A stretch of 63,287 bases of DNA, filler included, from an uncultured Methanosarcinales archaeon (GTDB lineage Archaea; Nanobdellota; Nanobdellia; Woesearchaeales; JAGLXL01): the NCBI GenBank assembly GCA_964472345.1. It is 6 parts of 6 records of this genome, joined end to end, with 100 filler letters (N's around TTAATTAATTAA, not from the genome) between each part and the next. Parts side by side here need not be neighbours in the genome. Positions count along the whole stretch, not along the records: positions 35,661 to 46,698 come from CAYYLB010000044.1; 5 more parts are not named here. One strand, given 5' to 3'. Made by a program: the position numbers. How positions within the stretch are numbered: position 1 is the first letter of the stretch; each line of letters opens with the position of its first letter. Shown here in pieces: positions 39,001 to 42,000 of this stretch.

Positions 39001-42000
39001 CGGTCGCCTCTCCAGCCCATCTTATTCCGTGGGAATTCTCCTCGTTTTTTGGCTTTCATTGTAGGTGGTGGGTGTGGACATCATCCAAGTTTCTCAATGG
39101 CTTTTATCACCCGCCGCATACTCGACAATTGTGTGGAAACAATCATAAAACAGATGCTTCCAGCAGCAAAAAGTATTACAATCGAAGCAAAAAGATGAGA
39201 TTTATCCGACAAACTTAATTGTCTGGTCATAAAAGCAATTACAAGACCAATAAGCACAGTAAAGAAAATAATTATTGTAGTATTGACCGTCTGGAGATGT
39301 TTCTGGTAATTTAAATCAAGGATGTTTTTCCTTCTTTGTGATTCTTCCATAACGAGAACTCAATCACCCAAACCGACAGCAATGAGGATGATGCCTAAAA
39401 CCAAAAACCCCGTTGCTCCAATGGTGATACTGTATCTCCCAGAAGCAAATGCTGGAATCCCGCCCGCAAGACCAACGATAGTGCTTATTACGCCTGCAAC
39501 GATAAAAAGATTTTTTTGGCGTTGTCTCATTTGTGTATAAGCTTAGAATCTCATCTTATTTAAAAATCTTACTTCTTTTTCCAGAACATTCCCGCCTTTG
39601 AGCTTCTGCTTCTCGGCTTGCCCTTGTGATCCAGCCTACGAAAATCTCTAGAAAATCACAAAAAATACGGCAGCCGGGACTTCCGTTCGCATTTCGAACC
39701 CGGGTCTCCACCTTGGGAGGGTGGGGTCTTACCGCTGGACCACTGCCGTATGAAACAGTGGAAAAGGGCGCGCTTTAAATACCTTATGAGAGGGAAAGAG
39801 AATATGCCGCGGCCGGGAAAGCCACGCCGCCGCGCTGCTCGGCAGCGATTTGAACCCGGGTCGAAGCCTTTCCCTGCAGTGCACGAAAGGGCTTCATGAT
39901 TCTCCGGCGGACGCGTTCCGCGCTCACTGGCGGCACGCTCCTGTCCGGACTACACCACCGCGGCACGCGAGCCCCGTTTTGCGCTGGCTATAAAAACATT
40001 TCTAAAACCAACCTTTAAAAGAAACGTCCCGTTCACCTCCCCGTGGACGACCTGCACCTATGGCTCAATGGGCGCTATCGCGATGCGGAGAAACTTCGCC
40101 CCCGCTTCGCAACGGCAAGGCCATTTCCCCACATCGTCCTGCGCGGCTTCTTTCAGGAAGAAAAGATAAGCCCGATTGAACGCGCCCTGCGCCGGCAGTT
40201 GTTCACCCGAACCGCAGCAGACCTCTACCAGTTCTCCCGCACGCCTGACTTCCAGCGCCTCAGCGACCGCGCGCTCAGGACGTTCCATTCCTTCTTCCGC
40301 TCGCCTGCGTTCATCAACTATATCGGCACCATGACTGCTGCCTCATTAAGCGGCACGATCGACATGGCAGGCTTCCTCTACCAGGACACCGACTACCTGC
40401 TGCCGCACGACGACCGGCTGCACGGCCGCGCCGTCGCGTACATCCTCAACCTCTCGAAAGGCTTCGCAAAAAAAGACGGCGGCCAGCTGCAGCTCCTCGC
40501 GGCGAAAAACAACAGGCCGTCGCGCGCCGTCAAAACAATCGCTCCGCTGCGCAACACGCTGACGCTCTTCAAGGTCACGCCGCGCTCGTTCCACCAGGTT
40601 GCGGAAGTGCTCAGCAGAAAAAAACGCTTTTCCATCGCGGGGTGGTTCCATGGCTAAATGGGGGGGTATCCATCCGGCGTATCTCCAGCTGCAGACGCTG
40701 CGGCGCGCTGCATCAGCCTATCATAACAACCATCCGCACAGCATCCAGCTGACGCAGTTTCTCCTGCCACAAGCCTGCCGTGCGCTGCTTCTTGCTGCGA
40801 AGGGCGCGCGCTGGAAGCGCCACGAGCAGTACGGGCAGGCGCGCTTCGCAACCGCTGCTCTTCCCCCACCTCTCCGGCAGTTTCTTGCGGGCGAACCGCT
40901 TCAAGCGCTGCTGCATGCGATCACGGGCAGGCAGCCTGGAACTGCACGGCTCTTCGCCTTCCGCCACCGCGATTACACATTGCTCAGCGACGGTGTACGC
41001 CAGCCGGCAGGCACCCTCTTCCAGCTCGAGCTTACGCCGCGCTGGCAGGCCGCATGGGGCGGATTCACCAGCTTTGTCGCGAATGGCCGTGAGCCGCTGC
41101 GCATCACTCCCATGCCCAACAGCCTCGTGCTTGCCGAGCAGCAGGCAGGGGTGCAGCAGTTTGTGAAGTATGTGAATCATCACGCAGGCATCACTCCACG
41201 GATCATGGTGCAGGGCGCTCTCCATGGCGATCACAAGCCCCGCTTCAGGCCGGATGAGCCGGAATTTCTTGCCTCTGCAGCGGTGGAATGATAAGAATGG
41301 GCCCGGGCAGACTCTCATGCGTTGGCATCCACCGCCGCTTTTGAACTGCCGACCACCTGCTGACTTCGTGCGAGGAGCGTCGCCCTATAAGACAGGCGCT
41401 CCAACCAGGCTAAGCTACGGGCCCGCAATGCAGCGAAAGCCGCGCGTTATTTAAACGTTGCTTCTTTCCGGTGCAGTCAAGCGAGGTGCCAAGCGTGAGC
41501 CGCCACCGTCAGTACAAGCAGCGCCGGAGCCGCAGGCGGAGGCGCGACGGCCGCGAGCTTCGGGCCGGCGCAGGAAGCGGCTCAAGCGGCGTGAGCGCAG
41601 CCGGGGAAGGTGTATTGGTTGCGCGGGACGCGCCTTGGCATTCCACCATCCGGATCCCCGCGGAAAGCTTTAAATAGAAGCAGAGCTGAGCTTGCAGCGG
41701 AGGGGTGTTGGTACGCAGCATCTCGCATACCGCGCTCGCTCACCAGAACGGGTGGGTGTTCCACCGGGAGGGATTGGCATGAAACAACACATTCGGTATG
41801 GGGATGGCGGCGACGACGAAGATTGGGACGAGTAATCAACTCATCATTTTTCTTTTTTCTTGGCAAACGATGCGGCTGCCGGGGATCGAACCCGGGTCAC
41901 AACCTTTTTTCACGGGGTTTTTCCCGCATGGCAAGGTCGTATTCTACCACTAAACCACAGCCGCGCTCCACCAGCAGTTTTGCAGATAGTTTTTAAATAT

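What a model noticed while it worked through the whole genome (the two positions that open the first line are those of the whole stretch)
40043..41291. OGFOD1/Tpa1-type ribosomal prolyl hydroxylase encoded as two adjacent genes
g01005 (204 aa) and g01006 (213 aa), two same-strand genes overlapping by 8 bp, together reproduce the two-domain architecture of the eukaryotic 2-oxoglutarate oxygenase OGFOD1/Tpa1/Ofd1, which hydroxylates a proline of ribosomal protein uS12: g01005 is the catalytic double-stranded beta-helix domain with the H-x-D...H iron triad, g01006 the non-catalytic C-terminal Ofd1_CTDD domain. The target motif KQPNSA is present in this genome's uS12 (g00782). OGFOD1 is described as conserved from yeasts to humans; here it appears in a DPANN archaeon.
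Evidence so far: g01005: Pfam 2OG-FeII_Oxy_4 E 3e-28; Swiss-Prot best five hits all OGFOD1 (Xenopus, human, cow, orang-utan, mouse), 35-39% identity over res 27-204 vs OGFOD1 60-240. PDB sequence search: only OGFOD1 4nhx (E 5e-29, res 26-204 vs 79-259) and yeast Tpa1 (E 2e-10); the alignment keeps L-L-x-H-D-D, S-F-H-Q-V and R-x-S-I-x-G-W-F-H-G. g01006: Pfam Ofd1_CTDD E 2e-9, 37.8 bits, cut-off 27; PDB search at E<=1 returns one protein, OGFOD1, matched in its C-terminal domain (res 467-540, E 6e-6). Coordinates C44:4383-4997 and 4990-5631, both +. uS12 has ...LEAKQPNSAMRKC.... relatives.tsv: 2OG-FeII_Oxy_4 in 138 of 822 order, 206 of 1860 phylum, 254 of 10117 archaeal genomes; Ofd1_CTDD in 35, 62 and 74, and [...]
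(Added by a program. Inside this text positions count along the whole contig: they may not be those of the stretch shown here. "Call 12" and the like, gene names such as g00115 and contig names such as C1 are that model's own, and its searches are not shown. The text may have been shortened before it was handed on; [...] marks where a part breaks off. The agent that wrote the report below was given it as the finding of a first reader that could run no searches.)

Follow-up and report, generated by a model that had tools for sequence, protein, structure and literature searches.

The report
Split archaeal OGFOD1-type ribosomal prolyl hydroxylase
Two overlapping genes in this small groundwater archaeon encode the catalytic and the non-catalytic half of an enzyme that matches the eukaryotic ribosome-modifying prolyl hydroxylase OGFOD1/Tpa1, a family that papers in the field describe as absent from archaea.

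Summary
Gene A (40043-40657, +) is a 2-oxoglutarate/Fe(II) oxygenase, and its only strong solved relatives are OGFOD1 and Tpa1. Gene B (40650-41291, +) is an Ofd1_CTDD-type non-catalytic domain.

The 8-bp overlap is not a hidden frameshift:
- All 111 relatives' loci that hold both genes on one strand have them in separate frames, mostly with the same -8 overlap.
- Contigs from three other samples cross the junction without indels.

Gene A keeps the iron triad, both active-site arginines and the 3-hydroxylase leucine in 114-115 of 115 archaeal copies. Gene B has no triad. Its conserved residues lie at the predicted A:B interface (score 0.81, best control 0.06).

The pair occurs in about 12% of sampled Woesearchaeales-type genomes. 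It also occurs in 6 of 47 genomes of one Asgard order.

In paralogue-rooted trees the A/B duplication predates the archaeon-eukaryote split, and eukaryotic fused forms are one clade. Archaeal copies are not nested inside eukaryotes. The direction of descent remains open.

The substrate (uS12 proline in KQPNSA) is inferred, not shown.

The parts
40014..40020 (+). TTTAAAA, a TATA-box-like element centred about 26 nt upstream of the GTG start of gene A. It would fit a leaderless archaeal transcript.
   Evidence: Read directly from the sequence. This is inference only; no promoter test was run.
40043..40657 (+). Gene A: 204-aa catalytic 2-oxoglutarate/Fe(II) oxygenase domain of OGFOD1/Tpa1 type. 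Key residues are the iron triad H122, D124, H184; the 2OG-binding R195; the active-site R129; and the 3-hydroxylase-type L119.
   Evidence: conservation in 114-115 of 115 archaeal copies; model pLDDT 96.8. Foldseek OGFOD1 TMq 0.89, Tpa1 TMq 0.92.
40650..40657 (+). 8-bp overlap. The ATG of B is formed by the His-Gly codons (CAT GGC) of A's C-terminal GWFHG motif, followed by A's TAA stop. This is a stop/start overlap of the kind associated with translational coupling.
   Evidence: offset -8 in 52 of 111 loci; offsets -1 to -14 in 96 of 111; no indel in contigs from 3 other samples.
40650..41291 (+). Gene B: 213-aa non-catalytic double-stranded beta-helix domain of Ofd1_CTDD type, a paralogue of A without an iron triad.
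   Evidence: model pLDDT 90.3. OGFOD1 E 4.3e-14, TMq 0.77; S. pombe Ofd1 C-terminal domain 6e0t TMq 0.72; the position of A's first His is H in only 48 of 113 B copies and is S in the window's copy.

Best explanation
A and B are two translationally coupled genes that together make a heteromeric version of the OGFOD1/Tpa1 ribosomal prolyl 3-hydroxylase.

A would bind Fe(II) through H122, D124 and H184, and 2-oxoglutarate through R195. It would use O2 to hydroxylate a prolyl residue. The most likely target is the proline of the KQPNSA loop of ribosomal protein uS12 in the decoding centre, as in eukaryotes.

B is a catalytically dead paralogue. It would pack against A as the C-terminal domain packs against the N-terminal domain in OGFOD1, and probably helps to recognise the substrate.

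Shown here: the domain identities, the conservation of catalytic residues, and the conserved two-gene layout. Predicted by a model: A:B binding. Inferred only: the substrate, the 3-position regiochemistry and any effect on translation.
For: (1) Domain identity.
- A's only strong solved relatives are OGFOD1 (E 5.1e-29) and Tpa1 (2.2e-10). The bacterial EF-Tu prolyl hydroxylase scores E 0.33.
- B's only solved relative by sequence is the OGFOD1 C-terminal domain.
- Both models match OGFOD1, Tpa1 and Ofd1 best by fold.

(2) Catalytic residues in 115 archaeal A copies.
- H122, D124, H184, R195 and R129 are each present in 115 of 115.
- L119 is present in 114 of 115. It aligns with Leu152 of OGFOD1, which Horita et al. 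(PMC4396695, Discussion read) give as the 3-hydroxylase signature where 4-hydroxylases have Tyr.

(3) The split is conserved.
- All 29 order relatives have A directly upstream of B in another frame.
- 79 of 80 loci from the species-genome scan have B downstream of A, and none is fused.
- Three suspiciously long A frames are still split.
- Contigs of three other samples cross the junction without indels. A G>A change at 40664 is synonymous in B's frame.

(4) A:B binding.
- Complex prediction scored 0.81 against a best of 3 controls of 0.06. That mark was reached by 116 of 157 solved complexes and 2 of 215 mismatched pairs.
- The runs agree in at least 97% of contacts and the partner's pLDDT is at least 81.
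- OGFOD1 and Tpa1 structures are solved, so this pass may reflect likeness to them rather than independent evidence.
- The interface holds B's best-conserved residues (Y109, G137, Y174, N176) and A's near-invariant D60.

(5) Substrate site. KQPNSA is present in uS12 of this genome and in all 11 genomes checked.

(6) 2-oxoglutarate supply. A glutamate-dehydrogenase-family gene in the genome could provide it.
Against: - No biochemical evidence exists for any archaeal member.
- The uS12 loop is identical in genomes with the pair (6 checked) and without it (5 checked), so it gives no co-variation signal.
- The pair is patchy: 49 of 401 genomes of the order and 0 of the 6 other genomes of the window's own family. 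It is therefore dispensable.
- In one other sample (X2) the contig carries G>A at 40062, which turns codon 7 of A (TGG) into TAG.
- The genome shows no Fe/Mn superoxide dismutase and no cytochrome bd oxidase. An O2-dependent enzyme therefore sits in an apparently non-respiring organism.
- No neighbouring gene is conserved that would point to the ribosome; the best neighbour occurs in 13 of 80 loci.
- Recombinant Tpa1p alone shows no activity on uS12 peptides in vitro (PMC4396695, Discussion), so partner requirements in this family are not simple.
Confidence: 0.65

Rival explanations
1. The same enzyme pair acts on a different substrate: another translation protein, another protein, or a small molecule. 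uS12 hydroxylation would then be a eukaryotic specialisation.
For: - There is no co-variation between presence of the pair and the uS12 loop.
- There is no conserved ribosomal neighbourhood.
- The superfamily is versatile. Fold neighbours just below OGFOD1/Tpa1 include the nucleoside-antibiotic enzymes PolD and PasI and the EF-Tu hydroxylase.
- Other roles have been claimed for Tpa1 (DNA dealkylation), although PMC6746446 (abstract seen) disputes this.
Against: - A is 35-39% identical to OGFOD1 across the whole catalytic domain and keeps the 3-hydroxylase Leu and both active-site Arg residues.
- Archaeal uS12 carries the identical target loop.
Confidence: 0.25
2. It is a single OGFOD1-like gene broken by a frameshift, whether a sequencing or assembly error or a recent pseudogene. 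Alternatively, it is read through by programmed frameshifting.
For: - The two ORFs overlap by 8 bp.
- A run of seven G follows the junction and a run of seven A precedes it.
Against: - 111 of 111 relatives' loci that have both genes on one strand have them in different frames, and a start codon is found for B in each. Offsets are -8 (52), -11 (25), -4 (9), -1 (5), +1 (5), -14 (4), other (4) and more than 20 nt (7).
- The frame relation differs between loci (+1 in most, -1 in the ATGA type), which a conserved slippery site would not allow.
- Three independent samples show no indel at the junction.
- The conserved GWFHG end of A lies directly before its stop codon.
Confidence: 0.02
3. Evolutionary rival: the archaeal pair descends from a eukaryotic OGFOD1 gene that was transferred to archaea and then split.
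For: - The fused form is widespread in eukaryotes. Of 20 representatives looked up, 11 carry an organism name, and all are eukaryotes from animals, fungi, Rhizaria and Heterolobosea.
- The archaeal distribution is patchy.
- The AU test allows archaea to be a single clade, so a transfer from a stem eukaryote is not excluded.
Against: - With the paralogous domain as outgroup, eukaryotic N-domains and C-domains each form one clade. SH-like support is 86 and 97 in FastTree and SH-aLRT is 94 and 94 under LG+C20. Archaeal copies never branch inside a eukaryotic group.
- In the mixture-model tree the eukaryotic clade sits among archaeal rows in both halves, with support 53-89.
- A single ancestral split conserved across more than 100 divergent archaeal genomes would have to follow the transfer.
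Confidence: 0.15

Closest known systems
Human OGFOD1 / S. cerevisiae Tpa1 / S. pombe Ofd1 / Drosophila Sudestada1 (uS12 prolyl 3-hydroxylases, tandem double-stranded beta-helix 2OG oxygenases)
   Same: - Catalytic domain with the HxD...H triad, the 2OG-binding Arg, the active-site Arg and the 3-hydroxylase Leu.
- A second, metal-free DSBH domain of Ofd1_CTDD type.
- Best sequence and fold matches for both halves.
- The target loop KQPNSA is present in the host's uS12.
   Different: - The two domains are encoded as two overlapping genes rather than one polypeptide with a 30-95-residue linker. A ends right after GWFHG.
- B is shorter: 213 aa here and 163-231 aa among 30 relatives. By Horita et al.'s stated domain boundaries (PMC4396695), the OGFOD1 C-terminal domain spans residues 270-542. 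Only B residues 109-179 align to OGFOD1 by sequence.
- The hosts are archaea (Woesearchaeales-type DPANN and one Asgard order), whereas the subfamily is described as 'found only in eukaryotes' (PMC4396695, Discussion read).
- No activity has been shown.
Bacterial single-domain prolyl 4-hydroxylases (Pseudomonas PPHD acting on EF-Tu) and HIF prolyl hydroxylases (PHD2)
   Same: The same DSBH prolyl-hydroxylase fold and iron triad. The fold match to A has TMq about 0.7-0.75.
   Different: - The sequence match is marginal (E 0.33).
- According to Horita et al. (PMC4396695, Discussion read), these enzymes have Tyr where A has Leu119 and have no partner DSBH domain.
- A is much closer to OGFOD1.
Ribosomal oxygenases of the JmjC type (YcfD/RoxA, MINA53, NO66)
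   Same: 2OG oxygenases that hydroxylate ribosomal proteins.
   Different: They belong to a different subfamily (JmjC with a winged-helix domain). They act on Arg or His of large-subunit proteins. They did not appear among the sequence hits.

Membership tests
OGFOD1/Tpa1 uS12 prolyl 3-hydroxylase subfamily | Catalytic DSBH domain with the Fe(II) triad HxD...H | tested here: met
   H122, D124 and H184 align with the OGFOD1 triad. They are invariant in 30 of 30 and 115 of 115 archaeal copies. The model's fold matches OGFOD1 with TMq 0.89.
OGFOD1/Tpa1 uS12 prolyl 3-hydroxylase subfamily | Arg binding the 2OG C-5 carboxylate (R-x-S region before GWFHG), and the Arg at the active-site opening | tested here: met
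   R195 and R129 are each present in 115 of 115 copies. The residue two after R195 is S, A or T (42, 39 and 34 copies).
OGFOD1/Tpa1 uS12 prolyl 3-hydroxylase subfamily | Leu (Leu152 in OGFOD1, Leu156 in Tpa1p) where prolyl 4-hydroxylases have Tyr | tested here: met
   L119 in D-Y-L-L-P-H-D-D aligns with the first Leu of L-L-C-H-D-D in OGFOD1. It is Leu in 114 of 115 copies. The feature is taken from PMC4396695 (Discussion read).
OGFOD1/Tpa1 uS12 prolyl 3-hydroxylase subfamily | A second, non-catalytic DSBH domain (Ofd1_CTDD) without metal ligands | tested here: met
   - Pfam PF10637 scores 37.8 bits against a cut-off of 27.
- OGFOD1 is the only PDB sequence hit.
- The model's fold matches OGFOD1, Tpa1 and the Ofd1 C-terminal domain.
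- The triad positions are not conserved: H in 48 of 113 copies at the first position and a variable residue at +2.
OGFOD1/Tpa1 uS12 prolyl 3-hydroxylase subfamily | Both domains on one polypeptide joined by a linker | tested here: not met
   They are two genes in different frames here and in 111 of 111 relatives' loci that have both genes on one strand. No fused archaeal form was found. A search for longer proteins with the B alignment gave none, which is weak evidence.
OGFOD1/Tpa1 uS12 prolyl 3-hydroxylase subfamily | [quoted passage not shown] | tested here: inconclusive
   Binding is supported by a model: score 0.81, best of 3 controls 0.06 (mark reached by 116 of 157 solved complexes and 2 of 215 mismatched pairs), at least 97% contact agreement, partner pLDDT at least 81. 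The geometry was not compared with 4NHX. The pass may stem from memory of the solved OGFOD1 and Tpa1 structures.
OGFOD1/Tpa1 uS12 prolyl 3-hydroxylase subfamily | Hydroxylates the conserved proline of uS12 (RPS23) | not testable with these tools
   Only the presence of the KQPNSA loop could be checked. It is present in the window's genome and in 11 of 11 genomes checked, with or without the pair.
Prolyl 4-hydroxylases (PHD/EGLN, PPHD, collagen P4H) | Tyr at the position of Tyr310 in PHD2, and a single DSBH domain | tested here: not met
   A has Leu at that position and a partner DSBH protein is present. The sequence match to PPHD is E 0.33.

The most novel reading that the evidence does not exclude
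The eukaryotic decoding-centre hydroxylase OGFOD1/Tpa1 descends from an archaeal two-gene system. On this reading a tandem duplication produced a catalytic gene and a dead partner gene in archaea. The Woesearchaeales/Asgard A-B pair is the surviving unfused state, and the two genes fused in the eukaryotic stem. If so, O2-dependent hydroxylation of uS12 is an archaeal invention, and some archaea without aerobic respiration tune translational accuracy to oxygen.
Probability: 0.3. Interest if true: 0.85.

Novelty: new variant of a known kind. Interest (0 to 1): 0.68.

Why it matters
Three papers from the field state the opposite of what is found here:
- The OGFOD1 subfamily is 'found only in eukaryotes', and prokaryotic prolyl hydroxylases are single-domain enzymes (PMC4396695, Discussion read).
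- Protein hydroxylation by 2OG oxygenases is common in eukaryotes and many prokaryotes 'but not archaea' (PMC4543633, passage read).
- Ribosomal oxygenases 'appear not to be present in archaea' (PMC5862935, passage read).

Six full-text searches found no paper describing an archaeal OGFOD1.

The split pair is the two-gene arrangement that the gene-duplication scenario for the tandem-DSBH enzyme suggested by Horita et al. would pass through before fusion. It also gives a natural system for asking what the dead domain does, because A can be tested alone against A+B. Its presence in one Asgard order bears on the origin of a eukaryotic ribosome modification.

If it is active, it would be the first oxygen-dependent ribosomal protein modification proposed for archaea, and it would occur in organisms that appear not to respire oxygen.

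Tried and rejected
The scan was run with the A alignment instead.
- The search for homologous proteins for longer proteins gave only 5 hits with A (4 carrying both Pfam domains, of which two are named as animals) and none with the B alignment. The tool itself calls this weak evidence.
- The third search, with an animal OGFOD1 alignment, returned only animal proteins among those that carry a name.
- Programmed frameshifting was considered and rejected, because the frame relation differs among loci.
- No conserved gene neighbourhood was found: the best neighbour cluster occurs in 13 of 80 loci.
- No RNA holder is listed for the stretch, so nothing can be said about expression.
- Five loci first scored as 'A only' were re-examined. 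Four have B: one overlaps A and three lie about 400-1000 nt downstream. One (L089) has no B within about 2.9 kb.
- Three long A frames (353, 291 and 279 aa) were checked as possible fusions. They are upstream read-through, and B is still separate.
- Rfam found nothing in the 500-nt upstream spacer.
- The A-like cluster labelled Thermoplasmatota and the bacterial clusters in the ESM Atlas were not followed, because I had no handle for those groups.
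Full report
**The observation**

The window holds two + strand ORFs exactly as described. Gene A runs 40043-40657 (GTG start, 204 aa). 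Gene B runs 40650-41291 (ATG start, 213 aa).

B's ATG is made from the His and Gly codons (CAT GGC) of A's C-terminal GWFHG motif, and A's TAA stop follows. The overlap is therefore 8 bp, and B's frame lies one base downstream of A's.

- A: PF13661 E 3e-28. OGFOD1 E 5.1e-29 and Tpa1 2.2e-10 are the only strong solved relatives; the next hit, the Pseudomonas EF-Tu prolyl hydroxylase, is at E 0.33.
- B: PF10637 at 37.8 bits against a cut-off of 27. OGFOD1 residues 467-540 are the only solved relative, even at E <= 10.

The genome (G000) has 1.26 Mb in 120 contigs and is estimated 100% complete. The window is several contigs joined end to end. uS12 lies on another contig and reads LEAKQPNSAMRKC.

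**Is the split real?**

Yes.

- A PF10637 search of 401 genomes of the order matched 34 genomes. In all 29 relatives' loci that I fetched, an A homologue lies directly upstream of a B homologue in a different frame.
- A scan of one genome per prokaryotic species with a profile of A gave 195 relatives, of which the best 80 were kept. Of those 80 loci, 75 have B directly downstream. On re-examination, one more has B overlapping A, three have B about 400-1000 nt downstream, and one (L089) has no B within about 2.9 kb. None is fused.
- Over the 111 loci that have both genes on one strand, B's start lies at these offsets from the end of A's stop codon:

| Offset | Loci |
|---|---|
| -8 | 52 |
| -11 | 25 |
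| -4 | 9 |
| -1 | 5 |
| +1 | 5 |
| -14 | 4 |
| other short offsets | 4 |
| more than 20 nt away | 7 |

- Three loci were skipped in that count: L089, the contig-end locus L093, and L109.
- The frame relation differs between the -8/-11 type and the ATGA type, which argues against a conserved frameshift site.
- Three unusually long A frames proved to be upstream read-through, with B still separate.
- For this genome itself, contigs assembled from three other samples of the same groundwater study cross the junction with no insertion or deletion. The one change near the junction, G>A at 40664, is synonymous in B's frame (GGG to GGA).

**What the two proteins are**

A's alignment of 30 copies has these invariant residues: D60, L120, H122, D124, R129, A132, G147, L149, P168, S182, H184, R195, G200 and W201.

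Over 115 archaeal copies:
- The iron triad (H122, D124, H184), the 2OG-binding R195 and the active-site R129 are each present in 115 of 115.
- L119 is Leu in 114 of 115. It aligns with Leu152 of OGFOD1.

Horita et al. (PMC4396695, Discussion read) give that Leu as the mark of prolyl 3-hydroxylases, where 4-hydroxylases have Tyr.

The AlphaFold model of A (pLDDT 96.8) matches OGFOD1 (TMq 0.89) and Tpa1 (TMq 0.92) best. Bacterial and HIF prolyl hydroxylases follow at about 0.7.

B has no invariant residue. The position of A's first His is H in only 48 of 113 copies, and it is S in the window's copy. The position of the Asp is variable.

B's model (pLDDT 90.3) matches OGFOD1 (E 4.3e-14, TMq 0.77), Tpa1 and the isolated C-terminal domain of S. 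pombe Ofd1 (6e0t, TMq 0.72) best.

An HMM of B also hits A proteins at 1e-12 to 1e-26. The two are therefore paralogous DSBH domains, as in OGFOD1.

**Do A and B bind?**

Complex prediction, run with both alignments, gave a score of 0.81 against a best of 3 controls of 0.06. That mark was reached by 116 of 157 solved complexes and 2 of 215 mismatched pairs. The runs agree in at least 97% of their contacts, and the partner's pLDDT is at least 81.

OGFOD1 and Tpa1 are solved, so this pass may only show likeness to them.

Independently of the score, the residues named at the interface include B's best-conserved positions (Y109, G137, Y174, N176) and A's near-invariant D60. That pattern is expected if the contact is under selection.

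The overlapping stop and start would give coupled translation. This is an inference.

**Distribution**

- A profile of A at E <= 1e-20 matched 49 of 401 sampled genomes of the order, and 45 of the 281 good-quality ones. It matched none of the 6 other genomes of the window's own family.
- Named relatives are almost all labelled Woesearchaeota, Nanoarchaeota or Pacearchaeota, or are small MAGs labelled Methanosarcinales.
- Unexpectedly, one relative is labelled Heimdallarchaeota. In a sample of 301 genomes of that phylum, 5 have the pair. All 5 belong to one order, where 6 of 47 genomes have it.
- In genome G456 the pair lies on a 995-kb contig, about 4 kb from the L32e-L19e-L18-S5-L30-L15 ribosomal gene cluster. 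That genome has a single uS12, on another contig. The contig is therefore not a co-binned DPANN genome.
- In both G456 and G417 the pair lies next to genes for the large and small subunits of an aconitase-family enzyme.
- The Asgard copies are split as well.

**Evolution**

A profile of four fused OGFOD1 proteins (two named as animals, two unnamed) found 4959 proteins at E <= 1e-3 among 1.84 billion representatives. The best 150 are all 330-1068 aa long.

Of 20 representatives looked up, 11 carry organism names. All are eukaryotes: nematodes, a flatworm, insects, the fungus Basidiobolus, the rhizarians Mataza and Nonionella, and the heterolobosean Willaertia.

- FastTree tree of A with N-terminal domains (253 rows): the 137 fused rows form one side of a branch (support 99). 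The 116 archaeal rows form the other side. The Asgard rows are one clade (support 99).
- Joint tree of N-type and C-type domains: the two types separate with support 100, so the duplication predates the archaeon-eukaryote divergence of this family.
- Rooted this way, eukaryotic N-domains and C-domains each form one clade. Support is 86 and 97 in FastTree, and 94 and 94 in IQ-TREE under LG+C20.
- In FastTree the archaeal N-domains form the sister clade (support 90).
- In the mixture-model tree the eukaryotic clade sits among archaeal rows in both halves (support 53-89).
- An AU test does not reject archaeal N-domains as one clade. The p-value is 0.526, and the constrained tree is better by 2.88 log-likelihood units.

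The data therefore give no sign that the archaeal genes come from within crown eukaryotes. They do not decide between a root between the two groups and a root inside archaea. The outgroup branch is long (1.3-2.3 changes per site), and the eukaryotic sample is heavy in animals.

The rows left out of the IQ-TREE tree were a thinning of every second or third row plus three long-branch rows (L023, L076, P0238).

The Asgard copies sit among DPANN copies (support 78-98). This suggests one transfer between those lineages.

**Function and caveats**

The most likely mechanism is the OGFOD1 one: O2- and 2OG-dependent 3-hydroxylation of the proline in the KQPNSA loop of uS12, with B as the substrate-recognition or stabilising subunit.

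The loop is present in all 11 genomes checked, 6 with the pair and 5 without. It therefore neither supports nor discriminates.

Against a housekeeping role:
- The distribution is patchy.
- One sample (X2) carries a variant that turns codon 7 of A into TAG.
- No conserved neighbours were found.
- The genome shows no Fe/Mn superoxide dismutase and no cytochrome bd oxidase.

A glutamate-dehydrogenase-family gene could supply 2-oxoglutarate.

**Comparison with the literature**

- A 2015 review says such protein hydroxylation occurs in eukaryotes and many prokaryotes 'but not archaea' (PMC4543633, passage read).
- A 2018 paper says ribosomal oxygenases appear absent from archaea (PMC5862935, passage read).

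Six full-text searches found no description of an archaeal OGFOD1. Subscription papers and supplements were not searched.

Automatic cluster names in the ESM Atlas already carry the Pfam labels for Nanobdellota proteins. The sequences are therefore annotated in databases, but as far as I could see they have not been discussed in print.

**Verdict**

This is a real, conserved, two-gene archaeal variant of the OGFOD1/Tpa1 enzyme. It meets every sequence-level criterion of the family except the single-polypeptide architecture. Its activity and substrate are untested.

Noticed in passing
window 40062 (codon 7 of gene A): In the contigs of one other sample (X2, depth about 10) G>A turns TGG (Trp, a conserved N-terminal position) into TAG. 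That strain may have lost A or may start it elsewhere. X1 and X3 keep G, and X4 has no contig over this position.
   Followed up: partly
window 41871-41964 (-): A 94-nt tRNA (Rfam 54.3 bits) for which ARAGORN could not name an anticodon. It probably contains an intron.
   Followed up: no
window 42516-43766 (+): A divergent S-adenosylmethionine synthetase with MetK-type central and C-terminal domains (Pfam E 9.4e-8 and 2.5e-12). From recall, archaea usually have their own MAT family.
   Followed up: no
window 43682-46750 (+): Downstream of the pair lie ScpA, the translation factor eIF-6 (E 1.8e-48) and deoxyhypusine synthase (E 2.1e-95). This neighbourhood is not conserved in relatives.
   Followed up: partly
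window 24001-26000: GC drops to 0.29 against 0.5-0.65 elsewhere in the window. This may be a contig join, a run of N or foreign DNA.
   Followed up: no
L135 (G456:C4:651000-670999) and L136 (G417:C37): In two Asgard genomes the A-B pair lies next to genes for the large and small subunits of an aconitase-family enzyme. In G456 it is also about 4 kb from the end of the main ribosomal protein gene cluster, on a 995-kb contig.
   Followed up: partly
L053, L072, L074: In three relatives, about 400-1000 nt separate A from B instead of the usual overlap. What lies in between was not examined.
   Followed up: no
ESM Atlas clusters: There is an A-like cluster of about 191-aa proteins whose commonest phylum is Thermoplasmatota. 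There are also bacterial (Actinomycetota) single-domain clusters carrying both PF13661 and PF10637 labels, and a phage (Uroviricota) cluster that resembles B. These are possible outgroups or further hosts.
   Followed up: no
window 39531-40042: A 500-nt spacer upstream of gene A has no ORF of note, no tRNA and no Rfam match. It contains a second TATA-like run (TATAAAAA) at about 39989-39996.
   Followed up: partly
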